A stretch of 35,777 bases of DNA from Deltaproteobacteria bacterium (GTDB lineage Bacteria; JAEEML01): assembly GCA_016283195.1 (NCBI GenBank), contig JAEEML010000021.1, positions 1 through 35,777 of the forward strand, written 5' to 3'. Position numbers and translations under genes: made by a program. This document shows positions 5,857 to 35,440 of this stretch, piece by piece (position 1 is the stretch's first letter; every line of letters starts with the position of its first letter). The notes beneath the pieces are model-generated. The model was not told the DNA's origin, searched no databases, and saw only the letters and a program-made list of their open reading frames with translations.

Positions 5857-7560
5857 ATGGCCAAAGCTAAAAGATTTTCCGCCGCTATGCTGCTTGTCCT
5901 TTCTTGCCTGATGACGGGTTGTGCCAAAAAAGCGCCTGTTGCCGATATGCCTCCTGCCGATTTCCGCTTGCCCAAAGGCTTTGAACAGAAGATCACGGCG
6001 CAACGCGGCGAGGAGATATTGGTTCCGGAAGGACACACGATTTTACTTAATATAAAAGGGGTTTTTGCCAAGAACACGGCCTTTATGCAAGACCTTAGAC
6101 CTTTAGAAAGCGCTTTGACAGTAGCCGAAGTGCCGGCGGGTACGGAAGTGCGTTTTTTGCCGGAATACAGCAATATACGCAAGGTTGACAGGCGGGTAGA
6201 GAGCAGCGGTGTTATGCGGATAGATGTTATTAACTTAAGTGCCGGAGCCTCTTTTGACTTAAGCGGCAAGCAAATGCTGCGCGAGCGTTTTAGCAAAGAC
6301 AACGTATTAGAAGAAAAACCCTATAATTTTACAATTAAAATTGTGCCTTATGAAGCCACTTTGGAGATGATTAAAGACGACCGCGCCGCAGCGCTCTTTT
6401 ATGTGGAAAATTCCCTGCGCCAATATGACAAACTCACTAAAAACGGTCATGAAGTTCCTTGGGAACCGGCAGAAATCGAAAAGAAGCTGGCCGAACTTGA
6501 TGCTATGGAAGCAACCGGCCTCAAAAAGCTCCTTATCTCCCGCTTAAGAGCCGAGGAGGCCAGGCGCCATCTTTCCGTGGCGGCGCAAAACGGTTCCGGC
6601 GAAGTGGCGAGTGCGGCTAAAGATGCCTTGAAAGATGTTGATACCGCCTTTGAGCAGTGGAAAAATAAAGGCCTGGACAAAGAGAAAAAGGCCGAGAAAG
6701 TAGATCAGCTTTTTGCGGAAGATAAGCTGGATCGCCGTTATGCGCCGCTGGTTTTACCCAAAGAGGAAGGGTTTAATGCCAATATCGATTTGCCAACCAT
6801 AGCTCGCCCGTGGCTCACCCCCATTTCTATGGGCCTAGAGCTGGAAAGCCGCTTTGGCGCTGTGGGCAATGCTAATCGCCGCTCTACTGCTATTGTGGAA
6901 ACTCTTTCCGGCCAGCTGGCTATTCACCCCAGATTTTGGGTTGCTCTGCGCTTGCCGGTAGCTTTTATCAGGAGCCAGGCTTCCGGCAGTAAGTGGACTA
7001 CCGAGCTTTTGAATCCCGGTGTTACTCTCGGTACTGCCTTTGTGAATCGCGAGCATTGGCGCATTCGTTTGGAAGTGGAATATCTGCCTACTTTTTCCGT
7101 TGACGAAGATTTGCAGCGCCTGGAACTCGTGCTCACCGAGATGCCCGGCTCGGCCACCAAAGCCCATACTATTGGCATTAATCCCAGTGTGGAACTTGCG
7201 GCTTCGCAATTTACGCTGGCTGTTTTAACCGGTGTGCAACTGGCGATAAATACCGGCAATAACAAGACATCGGCTCTTGATGCCTGGTTCCGCTATGCTA
7301 TTGTCGGCGGTGTGTGGCTACATAAGCGCTTTGCTTTGCAACTGGATGGGCGGGGCCGTGTTTTGCTGAATGGTGACAACCACACATCTTACGGCTCCTT
7401 TGGCTTTTCCGGCCTTATCAATATTCACGATTATTGGAATCTTGAGCTTGGTTTAACTACCCCGCTCGGTGATGATTCCACCCTCTCCAGTATGCAGTTT
7501 TATATAACTATTGGCTGCGGCAAGTGGGGCGCGCTCACCGGCAAGAAAAAGAAAGATTAA
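5857..7560 (+). CDS. Hypothetical lipoprotein with a C-terminal beta-barrel-like region
   Basis: Lipobox LMTG-C, helical middle region, alternating hydrophobic strands over the last ~250 aa. Confidence 0.75.
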   Translation: MAKAKRFSAAMLLVLSCLMTGCAKKAPVADMPPADFRLPKGFEQKITAQRGEEILVPEGHTILLNIKGVFAKNTAFMQDLRPLESALTVAEVPAGTEVRFLPEYSNIRKVDRRVESSGVMRIDVINLSAGASFDLSGKQMLRERFSKDNVLEEKPYNFTIKIVPYEATLEMIKDDRAAALFYVENSLRQYDKLTKNGHEVPWEPAEIEKKLAELDAMEATGLKKLLISRLRAEEARRHLSVAAQNGSGEVASAAKDALKDVDTAFEQWKNKGLDKEKKAEKVDQLFAEDKLDRRYAPLVLPKEEGFNANIDLPTIARPWLTPISMGLELESRFGAVGNANRRSTAIVETLSGQLAIHPRFWVALRLPVAFIRSQASGSKWTTELLNPGVTLGTAFVNREHWRIRLEVEYLPTFSVDEDLQRLELVLTEMPGSATKAHTIGINPSVELAASQFTLAVLTGVQLAINTGNNKTSALDAWFRYAIVGGVWLHKRFALQLDGRGRVLLNGDNHTSYGSFGFSGLINIHDYWNLELGLTTPLGDDSTLSSMQFYITIGCGKWGALTGKKKKD

Positions 7561-10523: not shown

Positions 10524-11321
10524 CTAGCTCCTTTGCATAGGATTATCCTTCTTGCTGTTTTGTTCAACTGTTGCGTTTTGTGCTGCCTTTTGAAACAAGT
10601 TAATAAATCTTTTTAGCTTGGTGGTTATTTTATTATTGTCGGCATTAGCTAGTGCTTCTTGTAACAATGGTACAATTTGCTCTGCATAGGCAACATATTG
10701 TTTTTCTTCGACCATTTGAAGCATTTCTGTCTTAGCATATTTGGGCAACTGCTTTTTGATAGCAGAATTTAATGGCCTAGCAAAGCTTTTATCCTCAATA
10801 CGTAGTAGAGAAATAATGGCATCAAGCAATAATTTACTGTTTTTGTTAGCCTTAAATATCTGACTTACATAGTTTGCGGTATATTCTTCGAATTTCTGGG
10901 GAAATGTTTTGTAACACTGCAAAATAAAAATATGTACAGGAGAATTATTGGCTTTTGCCGCATTTAAAACAAGTTTTTGGAAAAAGTCGCTATTTAATTG
11001 ACTGGGTGTAAAATAAAAAGCTGCTTCTGCCGTTGTTTTTGTGAGAATAGCGGCATATTTTTCGCTTTTGCTGCTATGCACTTTTAGTGCCTGGCTTAAA
11101 TTGTATAAAGTGCCAGGTGTTGAGTAACTATGGACAATTAAAGCAAAATCATTTATTTTGTCATATAATTCCGCCAACTTATTCTGGTTTAGCTCTGCGC
11201 ACTCCCCCGGTAATGGCAGTGTTTTGTCAATTTGGTGGAAAAGGGTAATTTGTGTGCTGACATCAAGATTGGTATCAGTAATGGCGTTAATAATAGTGCT
11301 TAATTCGCTCGGTGTTGCCAC
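10524..11321 (-). CDS. AT-rich helical hypothetical protein, possibly a 5'-truncated fragment
   Basis: 265-aa ORF; GTG start without a clear RBS; the frame stays open 10 codons further upstream (HQLFFESWLS). Confidence 0.6.
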   Translation of the reverse strand: MATPSELSTIINAITDTNLDVSTQITLFHQIDKTLPLPGECAELNQNKLAELYDKINDFALIVHSYSTPGTLYNLSQALKVHSSKSEKYAAILTKTTAEAAFYFTPSQLNSDFFQKLVLNAAKANNSPVHIFILQCYKTFPQKFEEYTANYVSQIFKANKNSKLLLDAIISLLRIEDKSFARPLNSAIKKQLPKYAKTEMLQMVEEKQYVAYAEQIVPLLQEALANADNNKITTKLKRFINLFQKAAQNATVEQNSKKDNPMQRS

Positions 11322-11860
11322 TGATAACCAGCTTTCAAAGAATAGCTGATGCTATGGATAAAGAGGTAAAGGCGCTCGATGGATTTTATCAGCAGCATAA
11401 TTATCAGGTAAAATAGTGAAATATGTACAAGGTAGTAATATATTATTAAAAATATTGCTACAAGCCATAAACTGGTGCCGACATAGCCGATAACCATGGG
11501 TAGTATAAGCCAATTGCTTTTATCCATGCCGCTCCTAAGGCGGCTGTGCATTTCGGCAAATGAAATGCAGAATACTTCGAATAAATATGCGTATAAAGGG
11601 CCTAAAATAATTACTTTGAACGCTTCGCCGTCTTTTACCGAGCGGTATTCAGATAACTTGGTGGCTTTATCGAAGGCGTCAGCGATGCAAACAATAGCAA
11701 ATATTAGACAAGTCACAAGGGTGATACCTCCTAGGGTGCCAAATATAATGGCAGCGTGGGCGGCTATAAAGCAAAAGAGCTCGTAGATACACCAGCCGAT
11801 GAGGATCACGATGGCTACTATAGCGACAAATCCAATAAGGGCGAATAATGATTCTTCCAT
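11300..11860 (-). CDS. Multi-pass membrane protein, possibly 3'-truncated
   Basis: Start reassigned to ATG 11860 (MEESLFALIG) after GAGGT; about 4-5 hydrophobic segments; AT-rich. Confidence 0.65.
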   Translation of the reverse strand: MEESLFALIGFVAIVAIVILIGWCIYELFCFIAAHAAIIFGTLGGITLVTCLIFAIVCIADAFDKATKLSEYRSVKDGEAFKVIILGPLYAYLFEVFCISFAEMHSRLRSGMDKSNWLILPMVIGYVGTSLWLVAIFLIIYYYLVHISLFYLIIMLLIKSIERLYLFIHSISYSLKAGYQWQHRAN

Positions 11861-12123
11861 AGAAGACCTCGTGGAGCAAGAAATGCCAATGCTAATCCCT
11901 AACGCAGAGGTCAGAAAGAGCATATTTAGAGATTATGATAAACATAATCATACCGCATACCGGCATAGAATACGCTGAACTGAACATTACCAGCCCCTTA
12001 TGGCTAAAAACCGTAAAAAAATCTAGCGGATCGGAGTAGGGCTGTCAAGCGGAAAATTGCGCTGGGAGGAAGGTGCTTCTCGGCGCCGGCTAAGGCCGGT
12101 AAGGGGCAGTTCGTGAGAAGTTT

Positions 12124-13395
12124 CTATGGTGTTTTTACCATAGATTTCTTTTTCTCCTTCTTCTCCCAGGGAGCGCTATCTCCGGCTTTAAAATTGTAAA
12201 TCGGTTTGATAATCTTGATAACCTCGGCGGTCGGCTCGATATTTTGCAAAATGCTCTCCAGCGGTTTATAGGCCATGGGCGCTTCGTCGATGGTTTCCAG
12301 GCCGATGGTCGAAGAATAAATTCCCGCCATTTCCTTTTGAAAATCATCTAGTTTTAATTCTCTTGCCGCCTGTGCCCGGCTCATGATACGCCCGGCGCCG
12401 TGGGGCGCTGAATAGTTCCAATCGGGGTTGCCCTTGCCCAGGCAGATGAGGCTGCCGTCGCGCATGTTGATGGGAATTAAGAGTTTTTCGCCTTTTTGGG
12501 CGCTTACTGCCCCTTTGCGCAAGATCATGGCTTTGGTATCAATATAATTATGAATGGTGGTAAATTGCTCCAAAATATCTTTTGGGGCAATATTCATGCC
12601 GGTGCAAATGGCTTCGATCATGGCCCGGCGGCTAAGGACGGCAAAATGCTGCATGATGCGCATGTCGCTAATATAATTATCAAATAGCTGCCCGCTCACA
12701 TAGGCCAGCTCGCGGGGAATTTTGGTAAGCACCTGGTTTTTCAGCCTTTTGAGCTCGCTTTCTATCTCTTTATCGCGCCCGGCGGCTTTGAGAGTGGCGA
12801 TTAAAGAAGCTCTATCGCTTTTTAAATTGCCGTTTAGCTGTTTCCAAGCCTCTTCCTGGTAAAAGCCGGCTATTTCCAGCCCGGCATGGCGGCTGCCGGA
12901 GTGCACCACAAAATAGAGATTGCCCTCATCGTCGCGGTCGGCTTCGATAAAGTGGTTGCCGCCGCCCAGAGTGCCCAGGCTGAGTTGGGCCCGCGCCTTG
13001 TTATAGTGGCCGCGGATATTATCCCACTCCACCGCGCTGGCTAGCGGGTGCGGGGTTTCTCTAATGGCAAACCCGGCGGGAATATTGGCTTTTATAACTT
13101 CATCCAGCTTCTTAGGGTCAAAATTCTGGCTTGCCGGAGCGGCGGCGTGAATGGCTATGGTCTCCATACCACACCCTATATCCACGCCCACCAAATTGGG
13201 GCAAATTTTGCCCTCTATGGTCATGGTGGTGCCGATAGTGCAGCCGGCTCCGGCATGAATATCAGGCATGAGGCGTATCTTGCTGCTTTCTACAAATGGT
13301 TGATCGCAAAGAGTTTTTACCTGTTTTAACGAAGTGTCGTCAACGAGGTCGGTATAAATTTTGGCACAGGCATAGCGGCCGCTGATTTCTTTCAT
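12124..13395 (-). CDS. rtcB: RtcB-family RNA ligase
   Basis: MPDIHAG, VGVDIGCGM, GTLGGGNHFIE, VHSGSR, HNY, RKGA, SAPHGAGR, DEAPMAYK. Start taken at ATG 13395 (MKEISG) after GGGGA. Confidence 0.95.
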   Translation of the reverse strand: MKEISGRYACAKIYTDLVDDTSLKQVKTLCDQPFVESSKIRLMPDIHAGAGCTIGTTMTIEGKICPNLVGVDIGCGMETIAIHAAAPASQNFDPKKLDEVIKANIPAGFAIRETPHPLASAVEWDNIRGHYNKARAQLSLGTLGGGNHFIEADRDDEGNLYFVVHSGSRHAGLEIAGFYQEEAWKQLNGNLKSDRASLIATLKAAGRDKEIESELKRLKNQVLTKIPRELAYVSGQLFDNYISDMRIMQHFAVLSRRAMIEAICTGMNIAPKDILEQFTTIHNYIDTKAMILRKGAVSAQKGEKLLIPINMRDGSLICLGKGNPDWNYSAPHGAGRIMSRAQAARELKLDDFQKEMAGIYSSTIGLETIDEAPMAYKPLESILQNIEPTAEVIKIIKPIYNFKAGDSAPWEKKEKKKSMVKTP

Positions 13396-13428
13396 TGCAG
13401 ATTCCCCGGTCTTTGTAGATAAAGGCAT

Positions 13429-13455
13429 AAAAAAAGCCCGCTAAATTAGCGGGCT
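13429..13455 (-). terminator. Intrinsic terminator just upstream of rtcB
   Basis: The minus strand reads AGCCCGCTAA-T-TTAGCGGGC followed by 7 T. Confidence 0.85.
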
Positions 13456-13489
13456 AAATTTTATATAAAATCTTGCGAAAAGCAAGACA

Positions 13490-13585
13490 GAAAAAACAGG
13501 GGGTAGGACTTGGAGTCCAAGGTTGCGGCATTTGCGCCGGGGAGATGTGAACAATACCCCACTCACAACCTTGGACTCCTAAGAC
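13490..13585 (-). ncRNA. Putative structured RNA domain (three-way junction closed by a 14-bp stem)
   Basis: Perfect inverted repeat ggagtccaaggttg (13512-13525) / caaccttggactcc (13566-13579) enclosing two smaller hairpins (GGGG...CCCC and GGC-GCAAAU-GCC), then CCCCCUGUUUUUU. Strand inferred from the promoter and the U-tracts. Confidence 0.6.
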
Positions 13586-13735
13586 AATAACCAATATAAA
13601 TATTGGTTATAAAATGATATGTCTATTGAAGGTAGGTCAGGTAAAATTTTTTTAAAAGATCCAACACAAAACTCTATTGAGAACCGTGCCAGCTCATTTC
13701 CAAGTCAGGCGCTCATGCGCAACGCCCTTATAATA

Positions 13736-13752
13736 TGCAAGTTCCGTGCCAA
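13736..13752 (-). promoter_or_regulatory. Sigma54 (RpoN) -24/-12 promoter, predicted +1 near 13725
   Basis: The minus strand reads TTGGCACGGAACTTGCA, matching YTGGCACG-N4-TTGCW. Confidence 0.85.
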
Positions 13753-13780
13753 CTTTTTGATACAAAGTATTGTTGAATTA

Positions 13781-13793
13781 AATCAATCAGTTA
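13781..13793. promoter_or_regulatory. IHF-binding site
   Basis: AATCAA-TCAG-TTA matches WATCAA-N4-TTR, at about -56 to -68 from the predicted sigma54 start. Confidence 0.7.
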
Positions 13794-13839
13794 CAGAAAT
13801 GCACCATTTTGTAAAAACTCTATGCATTACCAGTAATAG

Positions 13840-13883
13840 GGTAAAATTACCACACGAAGCCACTACTTGTGGTAAAATAGCCA
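13840..13883. promoter_or_regulatory. Candidate upstream activator sequences for an enhancer-binding protein
   Basis: ggtaaaattacca (13840) and ggtaaaatagcca (13871), plus inverted repeat ttaccaca-N13-tgtggtaa (13847-13875), about 115-160 bp upstream of +1. Confidence 0.5.
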
Positions 13884-13887
13884 TAAA

Positions 13888-14904
13888 TTAACCCTTGTTG
13901 CCTCTTATAGCGGTCTGATAAGTTGCCGCTTGCCGGCAACGGGGCTGATAGGGGACATCGATCCCGCCGCCCATTTTCAGATTGAGTCCGAGACAAGGAG
14001 CACAAAACTGGCGCTTTTCACAGGAGTGGCAAGGAGTTGGCTTCTTCAATAATTCGCGGGCCTCTTGCATAACCGGGCCATTCCAGAGTTCTATAAAAGG
14101 CGCTTTGATTAATGATCCTGCAGCCTTAGGCCAGTTTATACAGGGCCAGAGCAGCGCCTCGGCATCAATAAAGGCGCTCATGGTGGCTGCACCGCAGAGT
14201 TCCGGGCCAATTTGCCTTTTGGCCATCCAGCCTATGAAAGAGGATTTTTGCCAATTTTCCCTATATTTCTCAATAGTTTTTAATGTTGGAACCTCAACTG
14301 GAGGTGCTTCCTTTAGGCGGTTTATAGGGTCCATAAAATAAATACCGGCACAGCTCGCGCCAACATCGCGGCATAATTGTTCGATCTCAGCTAATTCACT
14401 AATGTTTTCATCAAGGAGCATTACTTGCACTTTGCTCTTTATGCCATATTTGCGGAGCAATTTAAGAGCCATAGTGGTGGCGGCAAAGGCGCCTTTGTGG
14501 CCCACAAAGCGGTCATGTTTTTCCGCTGTGGCAAAGTAAAGGGAAGTGCGCACCAGGCGCACGCCGAGTTCTGCTAGAGCCGCAATTTGTTCTTCACTGG
14601 CCAAAGTCAGGTTGGAAATAAAGGTTACATCGAAATAGGCCTTTCGAGCATCACTAATGATATCAATGAGATCTGGATGAGTAAAGATTTCACCGCCGGT
14701 AAAAGTGAGCTCTAAAGTGCCGGCTTCTGCCAGCTGTGGCAAAATGTTTTGCCAGGTTTCGCGCGGCAGGCGCACGTTATCAAATTCTCCGTGATAGCAA
14801 TGGCGGCAGCGCAAATTGCAGCTTCTGATGAGCTCAATAGTAATTTTAAACGGGCGAGAGTTTTTTTGAGCTTTTTGCACCATTTCCTTAAAAATAGTGT
14901 TCAT
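13888..14904 (-). CDS. Radical SAM protein with SPASM domain (PqqE/ScmE-like maturase class)
   Basis: CNLRCRHC, FTGGEIF, CGAATMSAFIDAEALLWPC, CHSCEKRQFCAPC...C. Start reassigned to ATG 14904, giving an ATGA overlap with the upstream stop. Confidence 0.9.
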   Translation of the reverse strand: MNTIFKEMVQKAQKNSRPFKITIELIRSCNLRCRHCYHGEFDNVRLPRETWQNILPQLAEAGTLELTFTGGEIFTHPDLIDIISDARKAYFDVTFISNLTLASEEQIAALAELGVRLVRTSLYFATAEKHDRFVGHKGAFAATTMALKLLRKYGIKSKVQVMLLDENISELAEIEQLCRDVGASCAGIYFMDPINRLKEAPPVEVPTLKTIEKYRENWQKSSFIGWMAKRQIGPELCGAATMSAFIDAEALLWPCINWPKAAGSLIKAPFIELWNGPVMQEARELLKKPTPCHSCEKRQFCAPCLGLNLKMGGGIDVPYQPRCRQAATYQTAIRGNKG

Positions 14905-15779
14905 AAAGTGCCCCGCAGAATTATCTCTTTGAGTGGCGCTTTTTGCTCCAAACCATTGCCAGTTAAGTAATAAGTGAGCTTTTTTATTGGATAATTTTCG
15001 GCTATGCGCCGCGATAGCGAGAGCATATCTTCGGCCTCTTGCCAAGCAATGCCCACACTATTTTCCAAAATAGCCTTCATCCTGGCGGCAACAGAAGGAA
15101 TGTCTGCCAGCGAATAAGGGCGGTGGCCATCTAAAAGATATATCTTTTCCAGCTGATAGCCATCAGGATAGCGCTCGATATAAGTTAGGTTATCGAGAAA
15201 AGTCGGCCAAATCATGAAGTTGCCCTCCGCAGTTTCCCCCAGCAAAGTTAAGTCGCCGGTTAAAGTATCGGGAGCAAAAAGTTCAGCTATGGTAGATTTA
15301 CCACGGCCAGACATCCCCATGAAAAGATAGCCTTTTTTATCAAAGCATAGGGCGGCTGAATGAATAAGCAGGCGCTTATAATGCGGAAGCCAGAGCATCA
15401 TCATCAGGCGTATTATATTGCAAATCGACATATAATAACCGGCACAGCGACCTTCGGCAAACTGCGGGTCGGCAATAGTAAAAAAGGCCAAGGGCTCTTT
15501 TAAGCTGTAATAGCCGTCGTAACTGCCGGAATGAAAGGCATAAATGCGATCTTCTAGGCGGTTAAAGCGCGGGATGCCGTGGTCGGTCATATATGGTTCG
15601 GCCACATGGCCCGGGGTAACAAAAATGCGGCAATGGGGCAGGGCGCCCTCTTTATGGCAGGCAAAATTATTATAACGCCTGCTGAAATCCTCTATTACCG
15701 CCTGGCTTTCGGAGCTGATTTGCCAAACTGTTTCGCCAAGAGTGCAAAAAAAGCTATATTCATTAGCCATTGTTGCCAA
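14901..15779 (-). CDS. HPr-kinase-related P-loop protein (ScmC-like class)
   Basis: LLIHSAAL...GYLFMGMSGRGKST and LTGDLTLL; translationally coupled to the radical SAM gene. Confidence 0.75.
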   Translation of the reverse strand: MATMANEYSFFCTLGETVWQISSESQAVIEDFSRRYNNFACHKEGALPHCRIFVTPGHVAEPYMTDHGIPRFNRLEDRIYAFHSGSYDGYYSLKEPLAFFTIADPQFAEGRCAGYYMSICNIIRLMMMLWLPHYKRLLIHSAALCFDKKGYLFMGMSGRGKSTIAELFAPDTLTGDLTLLGETAEGNFMIWPTFLDNLTYIERYPDGYQLEKIYLLDGHRPYSLADIPSVAARMKAILENSVGIAWQEAEDMLSLSRRIAENYPIKKLTYYLTGNGLEQKAPLKEIILRGTL

Positions 15780-15787
15780 TATCTTTC

Positions 15788-17068
15788 TCAGCGCGCCGGC
15801 AGGAGGAGGGCGATTTCGGCTTTATCTAAAAGCAGCTCGCCGGAGCAGGGCGCGGTGCTGACTTTGCCAGTGCTTGAAATGCGCCAGAGGTTATGGCCGG
15901 CTGCTACGGCTTTTATCTCTTCGGCCGGGATTTTTTGCGGGTTATCCCAATCTTTATTGATAAGGGCTACCAATGTTTCACCGCTGGCGGCCCGTTTTTC
16001 AAGAAGCATAGTGGGGCGCTCAAAGGGAGTGAGCGGTTTTAGGTGGCCCTCGGTTTGCAAAAGCGGCTCAACCTGTTTAAGCACATTTACGCTCTTTATG
16101 AAGGGGCGAAAATCAAAATTAATCTCTTCCCTGTCGGCCGGTTTAGTAGTTACCACATTAAGCCTTTTGGTGAAGCCTAATTCAAAGCCCATGGGCATGA
16201 GGAGGCCTTCGGAGAAAATAGCCGCCAAAAGATAACGTTGGCATACCACTTGCGGCCTTCCTCCTACTTCGGCAAAGAGCCTTTCGGTATCATGCGATTC
16301 CGCAAAAGAGACGGAGGGGGCAATGCTACCGAATTGCTCATGCTGTGTAAGAGCCCAGGGGGCATCGAAGTTCCAATATTTTGAGCTGTTAAAAAGGTAA
16401 TCCATGCCGGCCTCTTTTAAGGCGCTCACCTCTTCCAGGCGGCAGCCCAAAGTTTCGGCAAAAAACTTGGTGCGCTCATCGCGCGCTTTGGCCTCTTTTA
16501 TAAGGCGGGCCCAGAGAGCTGCCGGTACCTTGTAGGCCGCATCGCAGCGAAAGCCCACAAAGCCCAGGCTTTGGGACCAGGCCAGGAGATCCGACCAATA
16601 GTTCCAGAGCGCCTCTTTCTCCGGCGAGGCGTTATTATCTATTTCGGCCAAATCGCCCCAAACGGTCACTTTGCGGGCATCGGCCGGGTCGATGGCGCTG
16701 GGGTGCACTATTTGGCCGTTTTCGTCATGCTGATACCAGGCCGGGTGCTCTTTTACCAGTGGGCTGTCTATAGCTGTGTGGTTGATAACTAAATCCATGA
16801 TGGGCAGAAGCCCCTCTTTTTGAAAGCCAGTTAGAACGGCTTTGAGTTCCCGCATATCGGCTCTGTCCTGGCCTTCCTTCACAAAATCCTGGCATAAAAG
16901 GCGATAATCGCGCACGGAGTAGAGGCTGCCGGAGAAGCCTGGCTGGCTGATGGGATTTAAATAAATCCAATTAAAACCCATAGATTTGGCCTCTTTGCCA
17001 AAATGGGCCCACTCGCTTACAGTCCCGGCCAGGCGGGGAAAAAGATTATAAATAATAGGTGCTGTCAT
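15788..17068 (-). CDS. GH13 alpha-amylase-family glycosidase
   Basis: WIYLNPI, SLYSVRDY, MDLVINHT, GFRCDAA (nucleophile), FAETLG (acid/base), ESHDTER. Confidence 0.9.
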   Translation of the reverse strand: MTAPIIYNLFPRLAGTVSEWAHFGKEAKSMGFNWIYLNPISQPGFSGSLYSVRDYRLLCQDFVKEGQDRADMRELKAVLTGFQKEGLLPIMDLVINHTAIDSPLVKEHPAWYQHDENGQIVHPSAIDPADARKVTVWGDLAEIDNNASPEKEALWNYWSDLLAWSQSLGFVGFRCDAAYKVPAALWARLIKEAKARDERTKFFAETLGCRLEEVSALKEAGMDYLFNSSKYWNFDAPWALTQHEQFGSIAPSVSFAESHDTERLFAEVGGRPQVVCQRYLLAAIFSEGLLMPMGFELGFTKRLNVVTTKPADREEINFDFRPFIKSVNVLKQVEPLLQTEGHLKPLTPFERPTMLLEKRAASGETLVALINKDWDNPQKIPAEEIKAVAAGHNLWRISSTGKVSTAPCSGELLLDKAEIALLLPAR

Positions 17069-34298: not shown

Positions 34299-35291
34299 TT
34301 AAGCCTTATATAATTCTCCCATAGCGCTAATTTCCTCTTTAATTTCCCTGATGAGTTCCGGCGGCGCTAGAACACGCACTGTTTTCCCTTGGCCCAAAAC
34401 CCAGCGCTTTATTTCCGGGAGCTGGGTGGTTTTAAAGTGCACATCCACCGAACCATCAGCGTTGCGCGTGATTTGCTGGGTGGAATTCCACACCAATTCT
34501 TTGGCAAAAGCGGCGAGTTCCGGGATAACGCGCAAGGTGATTTCATAAGGCACGCGCTGCGAGGCCCAAACGCCGATTTCCGGGTCGATATAATCGCGGA
34601 AATTAAAGCTTTTTGGCACGCTAAAGTGGCGATTTTCCAGCTTTGTTTCGCGCATTCGGCTAAAAGTGAAGAGGCGCACATCATCTTTTAATGTATCGTA
34701 ACCGATGACATACCAGCGGCTTTTTTGGCACACCACATGGTAGGGGCGGATGGTGCGCTCTTTGTAATCCGGCTGCTCCATGGGGCGGTACAAAAAGGTG
34801 ATTTCCCGCTTTTCGCTGAGAGCGGTAAAGATATCTCTAAAAACAGCGGAATCAATAGGTGGCAGCGCTTCGGGGATAAAAGTAAGATTATTGAGCGGAT
34901 CCTCCTCCAGGATGGTCACTTTTTCGCTCAGGCTGGCCACAATTTTTCTGATAACGGCTCTAAGCTCGCCCTCGAGAGGTGTATTGCTGTAAGCCATGAG
35001 CAGTTTTTTGAGCAGCATGACACTGAAAAGCTCGTTTTTATCGAGGCTTATGTCTTTAATATAAAATGATTTTTCGGTGTAATAATAGCCGCTTTTGCTT
35101 CTGTCGAAGGCAATGGGAGCGTTGTAAAAGAGCTTTAGTTCCTCAATATCGCGGCTGATGGTGCGCACGCTGACTTCCAGCTTTTGGGCTAGAAAAGAGC
35201 TATTGGGGTAAGTATTTTTTCTCAGCTCGCTGTCGATGGCTTTTAAGCGGCGCAGAACCACTTTTTCCTGGGCCTTTTGCTGGCTTTTCAT
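34299..35291 (-). CDS. wHTH-WYL-WCX transcriptional regulator (YafY/PafBC-like)
   Basis: LAQKLEVSVRTISRDIEELK (HTH), ERTIRPYHV..SRWYVIGY..VRLFTFSRM (WYL), WVLGQGKTVRVLAPPEL (WCX); start ATG 35291 after GAGGA. Confidence 0.92.
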   Translation of the reverse strand: MKSQQKAQEKVVLRRLKAIDSELRKNTYPNSSFLAQKLEVSVRTISRDIEELKLFYNAPIAFDRSKSGYYYTEKSFYIKDISLDKNELFSVMLLKKLLMAYSNTPLEGELRAVIRKIVASLSEKVTILEEDPLNNLTFIPEALPPIDSAVFRDIFTALSEKREITFLYRPMEQPDYKERTIRPYHVVCQKSRWYVIGYDTLKDDVRLFTFSRMRETKLENRHFSVPKSFNFRDYIDPEIGVWASQRVPYEITLRVIPELAAFAKELVWNSTQQITRNADGSVDVHFKTTQLPEIKRWVLGQGKTVRVLAPPELIREIKEEISAMGELYKA

Positions 35292-35440
35292 AAAAATCCT
35301 CACTACTGCCAAAGTGTTTCATCTAAACCGAGTTATCTTTTACCAAAAAGGCGGCTCGGGTGCAATATGGTAAGAGGGAGAGGTGTGGGGGGCACTCTTG
35401 TCAAATACCTATGTTTTTGAGAGTGACTATTTGTATGTTT

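What the first reader, a model, noticed from the sequence alone, without database searches (positions are those of the whole stretch)
13429..13883. Unannotated sigma54-dependent structured RNA unit directly upstream of rtcB
Seen on the minus strand, in order: candidate enhancer repeats (13840-13883), a consensus IHF site (13781-13793), a consensus -24/-12 box (13752-13736), about 145 nt of leader including a 10-bp palindrome (13587-13610), a three-way-junction domain closed by a perfect 14-bp stem (13579-13512), a U-tract, a 6-bp hairpin (13471-13487) and an intrinsic terminator ending about 35 nt before the rtcB start. No long ORF lies in the unit. Established: UAS-IHF-(-24/-12) is the canonical sigma54 layout; enterobacterial rtcBA is sigma54/RtcR-dependent; in Salmonella it is co-transcribed with Y RNAs; myxobacterial Pxr sRNA is associated with a sigma54 promoter. 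Inference: this is a regulatory sRNA (Pxr-like in architecture only) or an RtcB-associated RNA or attenuator. No rtcA, rtcR, Ro60 or enhancer-binding-protein gene is in the window, so it does not fit the known operons.
Basis: partly seen in the sequence, partly recalled or inferred. Interest (0 to 1): 0.8.

Follow-up and report, generated by a model that had tools for sequence, protein, structure and literature searches.

The report
Sigma-54-driven structured RNA before rtcB
Just ahead of the RNA-repair ligase gene rtcB, an uncultured gut bacterium carries a textbook sigma-54 promoter that should produce a folded RNA of about 300 bases ending in two terminators; it looks like a new example of a known kind of regulatory RNA, but its expression and its job are not yet shown.

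Summary
The -24/-12 box is the only sigma-54 consensus match in the window (0.07 expected). The window's only two IHF consensus sites lie directly upstream of it. The genome has rpoN, seven enhancer-binding proteins and three HU/IHF genes, but no RtcR, Ro60, Hfq or CsrA was found. The palindromic hairpin, the three-way junction and the terminator region each fold far better than shuffled sequence. The unit is single-copy and matches no Rfam family at its curated score.

No homologue was found in any set of other genomes or loci searched, including 41 related rtcB loci. Those loci instead carry a WYL-type regulator pair, a conserved operator-like motif and a sigma-70-like promoter.

One related strain in a public DNA run keeps the promoter and RNA almost unchanged (4 differences in 294 nt), while the enhancer region (24 in 120 nt) and the flanking genes diverge. 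One metatranscriptome contig lies inside the predicted RNA.

Best reading (about 0.5): a lineage-specific sigma-54-dependent non-coding RNA whose tandem terminators also gate rtcB. This is a new member of a known kind. Function, strand-specific expression and activator are unproven.

The parts
13827..13875 (-). Candidate upstream activating sequence, at about -100 to -148. It has four TTACC/GGTAA half-sites in alternating orientation: TTACCAC-N15-GTGGTAA, GGTAA-N2-TTACC and TTACC-N8-GGTAA.
   Evidence: Sequence. The cluster count is not above chance genome-wide: 4 found, about 3 expected. In the related strain, 3 of 4 half-sites are unchanged while the 19-nt spacer carries 6 changes.
13781..13793 (+). 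IHF consensus site AATCAATCAGTTA, centred about -60.
   Evidence: In the related strain all three changes fall in the N4 spacer and the consensus positions are unchanged. Three HU/IHF-family genes are in the genome.
13750..13762 (-). Second IHF consensus match, TATCAAAAAGTTG, abutting the -24 element.
   Evidence: one of only 2 matches in the window.
13736..13752 (-). Sigma-54 promoter TTGGCACGGAACTTGCAT (-24 GG, -12 GC). The inferred transcription start is about 13727.
   Evidence: 1 match, 0.07 expected. rpoN is present. There are no listed differences at 13704-13767 in the related strain. The same core, with the AAAGT flank, lies upstream of genes in 10 Treponematales loci. The start site is inferred from spacing and was not measured.
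13640..13727 (-). 5' third of the RNA. It holds a small GC hairpin and a hairpin that contains a second TGGCACGG (13690-13683) lacking a -12 GC.
   Evidence: The fold is not better than shuffles (z -1.1). An RNA-library contig covers 13558-13708.
13587..13610 (-). Perfect 10-bp AU-rich hairpin (ATAACCAATA / TATTGGTTAT, loop TTTA).
   Evidence: z -5.4; mean pairing probability 0.81.
13512..13579 (-). Three-way junction: a 14-bp perfect closing helix (plus a U-G pair), a GGGG/CCCC hairpin and a GGC/GCC hairpin.
   Evidence: z -6.4. A covariance model of it finds only itself in the genome and in 41 rtcB loci. There are no differences in the related strain.
13489..13511 (-). Unpaired C-rich stretch (CCUACCCCCUG) followed by a U-run; a possible seed region.
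   Evidence: Mean pairing probability 0.26. One U-to-C change in the U-run in the related strain. The target scan was no better than shuffled queries.
13470..13488 (-). 7-bp hairpin GTCTTGC/GCAAGAT followed by UUUAUAU. It is a first, weaker terminator-like site. It overlaps a weak house-keeping promoter candidate, TCTTGCTT-N16-TAAAAT.
   Evidence: terminator scan; promoter score 8.7 bits against a training median of 17.2, with about 0.4 such hits expected in the region. The change in the related strain lies in the loop.
13429..13455 (-). Strong intrinsic terminator: 9 bp, 6 GC, loop of 3, U7.
   Evidence: mean pairing probability 0.83.
12124..13395 (-). rtcB (423 aa from ATG 13395), the only RtcB gene in the genome.
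   Evidence: Pfam RtcB, E = 2.6e-60. Single locus in the genome. Relatives align from residue 1.

Best explanation
The 460-nt gap between an unrelated radical-SAM operon and rtcB holds a lineage-specific, sigma-54-dependent non-coding transcription unit.

Proposed mechanism:
1. One of the genome's seven enhancer-binding proteins (which one is unknown) binds the inverted TTACC/GGTAA half-sites at about -100 to -148.
2. IHF bends the DNA at about -60.
3. RNA polymerase with sigma-54 starts transcription near 13727.
4. The product is an RNA of about 260-300 nt. It has a loosely folded 5' third, a 10-bp AU-rich hairpin, a three-way junction closed by a 14-15-bp helix, an unpaired C-rich stretch and two intrinsic terminators, giving 3' ends near 13468 and 13430.
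5. The last terminator ends 34 nt before the rtcB start codon and no strong house-keeping promoter lies in between. Transcripts that read through the terminators are therefore the most likely source of induced rtcB mRNA.

So the unit would act both as a small-RNA gene and as a gate that keeps the RNA ligase low unless sigma-54 activation is strong or termination is relieved.

Shown: the sequence elements, the genome's capacity (rpoN, EBPs, HU/IHF), single-copy status, conservation in one related strain, and one RNA-library contig.

Inferred: activation, start site, termination, read-through, and any trans-acting target.
For: Promoter and its cofactors:
- The promoter is the only consensus match in the window, with 0.07 expected.
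- Both IHF consensus matches of the window lie within 45 nt upstream of it.
- rpoN, 7 EBPs (5 receiver-type, 2 FHA-type, all with HTH_8) and 3 HU/IHF genes are present.
- The same core promoter with its AAAGT flank lies upstream of genes in 10 Treponematales loci, so this sequence type is in use in gut bacteria.

Structure and termination:
- The structured modules fold far better than shuffles.
- Two terminator-like sites end the unit.

Conservation in the related strain in DNA run X3:
- 4 listed differences in 294 nt of RNA plus core promoter.
- 24 differences plus 2 indels in the 120 nt upstream.
- 8 in 68 nt of the rSAM 3' end, and 9 in 163 nt of rtcB.
- Fisher test, RNA against coding flanks: p = 5.6e-4. 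If the 4 unlisted differences are all charged to the RNA, p = 0.02.
- The two 3' changes fall in unpaired positions.

Expression hint:
- Metatranscriptome run X8 holds one 151-nt contig identical to 13558-13708. It holds no own-organism piece elsewhere in 13100-14200.

Context:
- No strict sigma-70 promoter was found in 13300-13950. The best match to this genome's own tRNA-promoter profile is weak.
Against: - Only one relative, at strain level, could be compared. Its pieces are low-depth contigs (2.1-3x) that may come from more than one strain, and 4 of the 38 differences in one piece are not listed.
- The sharp change in divergence at about 13768 could be a recombination boundary rather than selection.
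- The RNA-library contig gives no strand, start or end, and DNA can be present in such libraries.
- The half-site cluster is not above chance genome-wide, and one of four half-sites is changed in the relative.
- Two changes in the relative (13701, 13703) would break the long-range helix predicted between the 5' region and 13511-13505, with no change on the partner side.
- No Hfq or CsrA was found, and no target stands out.
- No antiterminator pairing was found, so regulated read-through has no visible mechanism.
- The terminators could simply end the upstream operon, which has no terminator of its own before them.
Confidence: 0.5

Rival explanations
1. Pure cis-acting leader. The sigma-54 promoter is the rtcB promoter, as in enterobacteria. 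The 300 nt are a long structured 5' leader whose terminators attenuate transcription until some factor or RNA state relieves them. There is no separate trans-acting RNA.
For: - rtcB starts 34 nt after the terminator, with no strong promoter in between.
- rtcBA is sigma-54/RtcR-dependent in E. coli and Salmonella, and non-coding RNAs lie upstream of rtcB in the Salmonella operon (PMC7790460, passages read).
- 15 of the 25 related rtcB loci that matched the stricter motif pattern also carry a long hairpin followed by a U-run between promoter and ribosome-binding site. Terminator-like leaders before this rtcB clade therefore recur.
Against: - No alternative (antiterminator) pairing with either arm of the terminator was found.
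- Two tandem terminators, one very strong, fit the end of a gene better than a switch.
- The RNA-library contig lies in the leader, with none on rtcB (weak evidence).
- The leader hairpins of the relatives are not detectably homologous to this RNA.
Confidence: 0.22
2. RtcB-partner RNA. The structured RNA is made together with RtcB and works with it as decoy, sensor, scaffold or substrate. It would be a functional analogue of the Y RNAs of the Salmonella rsr-yrlBA-rtcBA operon, but unrelated in fold and independent of Ro60.
For: - The order sigma-54 promoter, non-coding RNA, rtcB parallels the Salmonella operon (PMC7790460).
- The RNA is more conserved than rtcB itself in the related strain.
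- The rtcB piece and the RNA pieces are all seen in the same run X3.
Against: - No Y RNA or YrlA model appears among the 31 Rfam matches at E up to 10.
- No tRNA-like gene was found by ARAGORN.
- No TROVE/Ro60 gene was found in the genome.
- No such RNA was found at 41 related rtcB loci.
- Nothing in the sequence points to a ligation or cleavage site.
Confidence: 0.08
3. No dedicated RNA function. The hairpins are the 3' untranslated region and terminators of the upstream operon, or DNA-level palindromes bound by proteins. The sigma-54 site is silent, or is just a promoter whose transcripts mostly die at the terminators.
For: - The upstream operon has no other terminator before 13488.
- The 5' third folds no better than shuffles.
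- No homologue was found in the other genomes and loci searched.
- The UAS is not significant by count.
- A weak house-keeping promoter candidate overlaps the small hairpin, and its start would fall inside the terminator's 5' arm.
Against: - A perfect promoter with two IHF sites in canonical geometry is unlikely by chance.
- Promoter and RNA are the best-conserved part of the locus in the related strain.
- The junction and hairpin z-scores are about -5 to -7.
Confidence: 0.18

Closest known systems
GlmY/GlmZ sRNA genes of Enterobacteriaceae (sigma-54 promoters with GlrR binding sites and IHF sites; PMC3045617, seen as search listing and abstract)
   Same: A small non-coding RNA gene driven by a -24/-12 promoter. 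Activator sites lie about 100-150 bp upstream, IHF sites lie between them and the promoter, and an intrinsic terminator ends the unit.
   Different: - No sequence or Rfam similarity.
- Different half-site motif.
- The activator is unknown.
- This RNA is longer (about 300 nt) and sits directly in front of rtcB.
rtcBA and rsr-yrlBA-rtcBA operons of E. coli and Salmonella (sigma-54 plus RtcR; PMC7790460, passages read)
   Same: A sigma-54 promoter lies upstream of rtcB. In Salmonella, non-coding RNAs are encoded between the promoter and rtcB.
   Different: - No RtcR/CARF activator and no Ro60 were found in the genome.
- No rtcA was found among the 24 large ORFs of the window.
- No Y-RNA model match.
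- Strong terminators lie between the RNA and rtcB.
Pxr (Myxococcus) and Qrr (Vibrio) sigma-54-dependent sRNAs (recalled, not read here; a Qrr1 paper, PMC10162802, appeared in the listing)
   Same: An enhancer-dependent small RNA made under control of NtrC-type activators.
   Different: - Those RNAs are shorter (recalled) and have their own conserved folds.
- None appears among the Rfam matches at E up to 10.
- Hfq, on which Qrr depends (recalled), was not found here.
Second sigma-54-driven sRNA candidate of the same genome
   Same: Same genome and same layout: a palindromic UAS, a -24/-12 box, then hairpins and a U-rich terminator with no ORF.
   Different: - Different UAS motif (ATGACA-N5-TGTC type).
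- About 130 nt.
- No sequence similarity to this RNA.
- Not next to rtcB.
WYL-pair-regulated rtcB loci of rumen Treponema and other gut MAGs
   Same: The rtcB clade is shared (63-70% protein identity). A dedicated regulatory region and, in many loci, a long hairpin plus U-run lie directly upstream of rtcB.
   Different: - Regulators of a different class (WYL/WCX-domain proteins).
- A conserved motif TTTTCGCAC-N-AAATTTTCCGTGAT with a sigma-70-like promoter (read by eye) in 30 of 41 loci.
- No sigma-54 box within 800 nt upstream of rtcB in 43 other metagenome loci checked (one relaxed-pattern hit, in L075), and none at rtcB in the genome-collection loci.
- No homology to the window's RNA.

Membership tests
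Sigma-54-dependent (enhancer-dependent) promoter | GG at -24 and GC at -12 in TGGCAC-N5-TTGCW with correct spacing | tested here: met
   exact match, 1 found against 0.07 expected.
Sigma-54-dependent (enhancer-dependent) promoter | Genome encodes RpoN and AAA+ enhancer-binding proteins | tested here: met
   (Sigma54_DBD, 194.6 bits); 7 proteins with Sigma54_activat plus HTH_8.
Sigma-54-dependent (enhancer-dependent) promoter | Activator binding sites about 80-150 bp upstream | tested here: inconclusive
   Inverted TTACC/GGTAA half-sites lie at -100 to -148. The cluster is not above chance. 3 of 4 half-sites are kept in the relative.
Sigma-54-dependent (enhancer-dependent) promoter | Transcription start about 12 nt downstream of the GC, dependent on rpoN | not testable with these tools
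   Only contigs of an RNA library were available, with no strand or ends.
Intrinsic terminator-bounded sRNA gene | GC-rich hairpin followed by a U-run at the 3' end; no coding potential | tested here: met
   The small ORFs have no family support above cut-off.
Intrinsic terminator-bounded sRNA gene | Conserved structure with covariation across homologues | not testable with these tools
   No homologue beyond one strain-level relative was reached. In that relative, 2 changes fall in loops and 2 break a predicted long-range helix.
RtcR-regulated rtc operon | RtcR activator with a CARF-like N-terminal domain | tested here: not met
   PF06956 has no match in the genome, which is 100% complete by markers. 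All 7 EBPs have receiver or FHA N-termini.
RtcR-regulated rtc operon | rtcA next to rtcB | tested here: not met
   No RTC-cyclase domain among the 24 large ORFs of the window. Not searched genome-wide.
Bacterial Y RNA / YrlA | Match to the Rfam Y-RNA-type models; tRNA-like module | tested here: not met
   Not among the 31 matches at E up to 10. ARAGORN finds nothing in the window.
Bacterial Y RNA / YrlA | Ro60 (TROVE) protein partner encoded in the genome | tested here: not met
   no match.
GcvB sRNA (RF00022) | Score at or above Rfam's gathering score; Hfq present | tested here: not met
   38.9 bits against a gathering score of 42. The alignment rests on the hairpin and the terminator, with low posterior probability in the middle. 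No Hfq was found.

The most novel reading that the evidence does not exclude
The RNA is a new, Ro-independent partner of the RNA ligase RtcB. It would be a sigma-54-induced structured RNA, co-expressed with rtcB through terminator read-through, that senses or buffers RNA damage. For example, it could act as a decoy for a nuclease, or as a ligatable reporter whose state controls read-through. This would be an independent invention of the ncRNA-plus-rtcB pairing known from the Salmonella rsr-yrlBA-rtcBA operon.
Probability: 0.08. Interest if true: 0.75.

Novelty: new member of a known kind. Interest (0 to 1): 0.42.

Why it matters
If it is transcribed as predicted, this is a new RNA family with no Rfam match at curated scores. 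It would also be a third way of wiring the RNA-repair ligase RtcB to a stress signal:
- CARF-type RtcR plus sigma-54 in enterobacteria.
- A WYL-domain regulator pair in the rumen Treponema-type loci found here.
- A sigma-54 promoter with a receiver- or FHA-type activator and a terminator-bounded structured RNA in this organism.

It would show that sigma-54 control of rtcB and the placement of a non-coding RNA in front of it arose more than once. It would also give a compact system (promoter, RNA, two terminators, ligase) for asking how RtcB expression is gated.

If the RNA is only a leader or a 3' untranslated region, the finding is an ordinary lineage-specific promoter swap.

Tried and rejected
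1. Rfam. There were 0 matches at gathering scores in the window. At E up to 10 there were 31 matches, nearly all resting on the terminator. The best, GcvB, scored 38.9 against 42. Rejected as membership.

2. Homologues of the RNA.
- Family, order and phylum searches for the window's genome returned only the genome itself.
- 60 and then 400 'relatives' were all only 'same domain'.
- RpoN is at most 41% identical in the 400, 31-36% in 4 of 5 Treponematales genomes tried, with no match in the fifth, and has no match at E <= 1e-105 in 93 genomes of the phylum of the best hit.
- No relatives were therefore reachable.
- In 401 Treponematales genomes, 16 had short matches. 10 of these were promoter cores; the rest were short AT-rich or terminator-like stretches.
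- blastn and nhmmer on 80 metagenome and 80 genome rtcB loci found only the window's own record.
- Covariance model R1 of the junction found only itself in 41 loci plus the window, and in the own genome.

3. Synteny. I first read the two genes upstream of rtcB in relatives as amylase-like plus rSAM, from ORF sizes. Pfam showed WYL/WCX-type regulators instead, so that claim is withdrawn.

4. Shared operator. TTTTCGCAAGATTTT at 13481 resembles the relatives' conserved motif. Only 3 such extended matches occur in the genome. However, a profile of the relatives' motif does not hit it. Rejected as unsupported.

5. Genome-wide partners of the UAS. No other sigma-54 site shares the half-site arrangement. 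The 12-mer GGTAAAATTACC recurs at C36 and C125 inside a different repeat.

6. Antiterminator and RBS pairing. No convincing duplex was found.

7. Trans targets. Two unpaired segments were tested against 2704 crude translation-initiation regions. The minima (-28.2 and -31.2 kcal/mol) were no better than 5 shuffled queries each. The top hits of the C-rich segment fall on a dispersed G-rich repeat.

8. Coding. The ORFs of 41, 46 and 90 aa have no Pfam support above cut-off.

9. Strict sigma-70 scan. It found 0 sites in 13300-13950. A profile of this genome's tRNA promoters gives only a weak hit at 13487.

10. Run coverage. Parts of 13100-14200 without cover in runs X2, X5 and X8 say nothing.

11. 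Papers. PMC5062991 is not held. Searches for RtcB with sigma54 or noncoding RNA, RtcB with WYL, and Fibrobacter with small RNA or sigma54 listed nothing that describes this RNA.
Full report
**What is in the sequence**

- TTGGCACGGAACTTGCAT at 13752-13736 is an exact -24/-12 box. It is the only match to TGGCAC-N5-TTGCW in the 35.8-kb window, with 0.07 expected from shuffles.
- The IHF pattern WATCAANNNNTTR matches twice in the whole window, with 1.89 expected. Both matches lie directly upstream of that box, at 13781-13793 and 13762-13750. That placement is hard to ascribe to chance.
- Further upstream, four TTACC/GGTAA half-sites alternate in orientation at 13827-13875. Such a cluster occurs 4 times in the genome against about 3 expected. 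So the 'enhancer repeats' are only a candidate.
- Downstream of the inferred start (about 13727), the RNA would have a loosely folded 5' third (z -1.1). It then has a perfect 10-bp AU-rich hairpin (z -5.4) and a three-way junction closed by 14 Watson-Crick pairs plus a U-G (z -6.4). An unpaired C-rich stretch with a U-run follows, then a 7-bp hairpin followed by UUUAUAU, and a strong terminator with 9 bp, 6 GC and U7 (z -6.8 for the terminator region).
- The whole 311 nt fold with z = -6.4.

rtcB most likely begins at ATG 13395. Relatives align from residue 1 of that form, so the U-run ends 34 nt before the start codon. Small ORFs exist in the unit: 41 and 46 aa on the minus strand and 90 aa on the plus strand. 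None has family support above its cut-off.

**Can the genome use it, and is it a repeat?**

The genome (3.22 Mb, 190 contigs, 100% complete by markers) has the following:
- rpoN.
- Seven proteins with Sigma54_activat plus HTH_8. Five have a receiver domain and two have FHA, one of those also with GAF.
- Three HU/IHF-family genes.

No RtcR domain, TROVE/Ro60, Hfq or CsrA was found. There is a single RtcB locus. The 466-nt region and a covariance model of the junction each match only once in the genome, so it is not a dispersed repeat.

A pattern scan gave 39 sites fitting TGG[CT]A[CT]-N5-TTGC[AT]. Several have their own recognisable upstream repeats (TGACACAC arrays; ATGACA-N5-TGTC). One of them, at C149:7445, is followed by hairpins and a terminator rather than a gene. 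Enhancer-dependent small RNAs may therefore be a habit of this organism.

**Known families**

Rfam gave no match at gathering scores. At E up to 10 there were 31 matches, almost all resting on the terminator. The best was GcvB at 38.9 bits, below its gathering score of 42, with poor posterior probabilities through the middle. No Y-RNA-type model was among them. ARAGORN found no tRNA-like gene in the window.

**Relatives of the locus**

- The genome has no kin in the held collection. Family, order and phylum searches returned only itself.
- Its RpoN is at most 41% identical to that of 400 sampled genomes. It has no match at E <= 1e-105 in the 93 genomes of the phylum of the best hit.
- The closest RtcB proteins outside the window's own record are 63-70% identical. 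They sit in rumen Treponema/Spirochaetia MAGs and some Bacteroidales MAGs.
- None of those 160 loci holds the RNA by blastn or nhmmer. Neither do the 41 closest by the covariance model.
- None of the 43 other metagenome loci checked has a strict sigma-54 box within 800 nt upstream of rtcB; one relaxed-pattern hit occurred, in L075. None of the genome-collection loci has one at rtcB.

Instead, 30 of the 41 closest loci carry a conserved motif, TTTTCGCAC-N-AAATTTTCCGTGAT, next to what reads by eye as a sigma-70-like promoter. Of the 25 loci that matched a stricter motif pattern, 15 also have a long hairpin (AAAGGTTC ... GAACCTTGTTTTT) just before the ribosome-binding site. One base pair of that hairpin's stem switches between G-C and A-U.

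The two genes upstream of rtcB in three such loci tested are WYL/WCX-type regulators, with partly sub-threshold scores. My earlier reading of conserved synteny with the window's upstream genes was wrong and is withdrawn.

In 401 Treponematales genomes, the only recurrent match to the window's region was the promoter core with its AAAGT flank. It was found in 10 loci upstream of genes that I read by eye as sigma-factor-like and Hsp20-like.

**One strain-level relative and one RNA contig**

Nine of the 11 listed public runs hold part of the stretch, from nine studies. Most are gut metagenomes, several of them from cattle or sheep; one is a sediment metagenome. Four runs were laid.

DNA run X3 holds three low-depth pieces of a related strain:
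- 13429-13602 with 2 differences.
- 13648-13955 with 38 differences and 2 one-base indels.
- 13178-13340 (rtcB) with 9 differences.

Within the second piece the listed differences are very uneven:
- 2 in 13648-13727.
- 0 in 13728-13767.
- 24 plus both indels in 13768-13887.
- 8 in the last 68 nt of the rSAM gene.

Overall the RNA plus core promoter has 4 differences in 294 nt. The coding flanks have 17 in 231 nt. The Fisher test gives p = 5.6e-4, or p = 0.02 if the 4 unlisted differences are all charged to the RNA.

In the diverged upstream part, the IHF consensus positions are untouched while 3 of the 4 spacer bases changed. Three of four half-sites are untouched while the 19-nt spacer between two of them took 6 changes.

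The two changes in the 3' part of the RNA lie in a hairpin loop and in the U-run. The two changes in the 5' part would break a predicted long-range helix with 13511-13505, so that helix is not supported.

Caveats: the pieces may come from more than one strain, and the sharp boundary at about 13768 could be a recombination joint.

Metatranscriptome run X8 holds one 151-nt contig identical to 13558-13708. It holds nothing else from this organism in 13100-14200. Its other three pieces match only a conserved rtcB motif, with 3-8 differences, and then run on unlike the window. Contigs give no strand or ends, and DNA may be present in such libraries. This is a hint of expression, not proof.

**How rtcB is transcribed**

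A strict sigma-70 scan found nothing in 13300-13950.

I built a profile of this genome's own house-keeping promoters from 27 of 34 tRNA upstream regions; the consensus is tCTTGACA-N17-TAnAAG. Its best match in the gap is TCTTGCTT-N16-TAAAAT at 13487. This scores 8.7 bits against a training median of 17.2, and about 0.4 such hits are expected in a region of this size, so it is weak. If it is used, its start (about 13451) would fall inside the 5' arm of the terminator and escape it.

Otherwise rtcB depends on read-through of the two terminators. I found no antiterminator pairing.

**Reading**

The best-supported explanation is a lineage-specific, sigma-54-dependent non-coding transcription unit whose tandem terminators also gate rtcB (about 0.5).

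The rivals are:
- A pure cis leader/attenuator (0.22).
- No dedicated RNA function (0.18).
- An RtcB-partner RNA, a functional analogue of the Y RNAs of the Salmonella rsr-yrlBA-rtcBA operon (PMC7790460, passages read) but Ro-independent (0.08).

A scan for trans targets gave nothing better than shuffled queries.

The closest described systems by layout are the sigma-54/GlrR/IHF-controlled glmY and glmZ genes (PMC3045617, listing and abstract) and the RtcR-dependent rtc operons. The unit meets the sequence-level features of a sigma-54 promoter and of a terminator-bounded sRNA gene. It fails the defining features of the RtcR operon, Y RNA and GcvB.

Literature searches listed no description of this RNA. 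Supplements were not consulted.

**Verdict**

This is a new member of a known kind, of moderate interest. The rtcB link and the apparent replacement of a WYL-type control region by a sigma-54/RNA unit are the parts worth following up.

Noticed in passing
Loci L043-L052, L072, L124-L148, L186, L192 (upstream of rtcB): 30 of the 41 closest rtcB loci share a motif, TTTTCGCAC-N-AAATTTTCCGTGAT, next to what reads by eye as a sigma-70-like promoter. Of the 25 loci that matched a stricter motif pattern, 15 also have a long leader hairpin, AAAGGTTC...GAACCTTGTTTTT, with a variable interior and one G-C/A-U switching pair. No Rfam family matched in the 14 loci scanned. This may be an undescribed rtcB operator plus leader element.
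   Followed up: partly
L136:176-2421, L048:146-2360, L134:252-2436: The two genes directly upstream of rtcB in these relatives give WYL, WCX or PaaX-like HTH hits, some below the Pfam cut-offs. This suggests a PafBC-like pair of WYL regulators controlling rtcB in rumen Treponema-type genomes.
   Followed up: partly
window 34299-35312 (-): A single HTH_11-WYL-WCX regulator lies 21 kb from rtcB. No link to the rtcB region was found. The relatives' motif profile gives only a very weak hit inside this gene.
   Followed up: partly
window 13683-13690 (-): A second TGGCACGG lies 37 nt downstream of the inferred start. It is followed by TTCTCAAT and so lacks the -12 GC. It sits in a predicted hairpin of the 5' leader.
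   Followed up: no
Genome contigs C7:15841, C186:2480, C19:4738, C72:5906, C88:28161, C27:32500, C82:46706: A family of sigma-54 boxes is preceded by arrays of TGACACAC-type repeats. They sit upstream of small proteins with a shared KGVWS..GKPIW.RMG motif, or of repeated genes starting MRI.V.NDVIFRALFGNP. This is probably one large regulon of one activator.
   Followed up: no
Genome contig C149, promoter at 7445 (-): A sigma-54 box with an ATGACA-N5-TGTC palindrome upstream is followed by about 130 nt of hairpins and a U8 terminator, with no ORF. A similar palindrome precedes the box at C151:198.
   Followed up: partly
L212, L214, L216-L220, L222, L223, L226 (Treponematales genomes): Near-identical sigma-54 promoter cores (AAAGT TGGCACGGAAnTTGCw) lie upstream of genes that I read by eye as sigma-70-family factors and small heat-shock proteins. 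The gene identities were not checked with a tool.
   Followed up: no
L045:2776-2847, L050:3279-3547, L051:3929-4000: tRNA genes lie shortly downstream of rtcB in three related loci. No tRNA gene is found in the window.
   Followed up: no
window 13888-17068 (-): The upstream operon encodes an amylase/debranching-like protein, a 292-aa protein with a weak HprK-related-kinase-B hit, and a radical SAM/SPASM enzyme. This resembles a peptide-maturation cassette and is unrelated to rtcB in the relatives.
   Followed up: no
window 10524-11923 (-): Two ORFs downstream of rtcB (207 and 265 aa) have no match in Pfam, NCBIfam or PADLOC.
   Followed up: partly
Genome contigs C36:3547 and C125:996: These share a palindromic element of about 40 nt (CTACTAAGCAAAACYGGTAAAATTACCAGAAACG...) that contains the same 12-mer as the window's UAS centre. 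Its context is otherwise unrelated.
   Followed up: no
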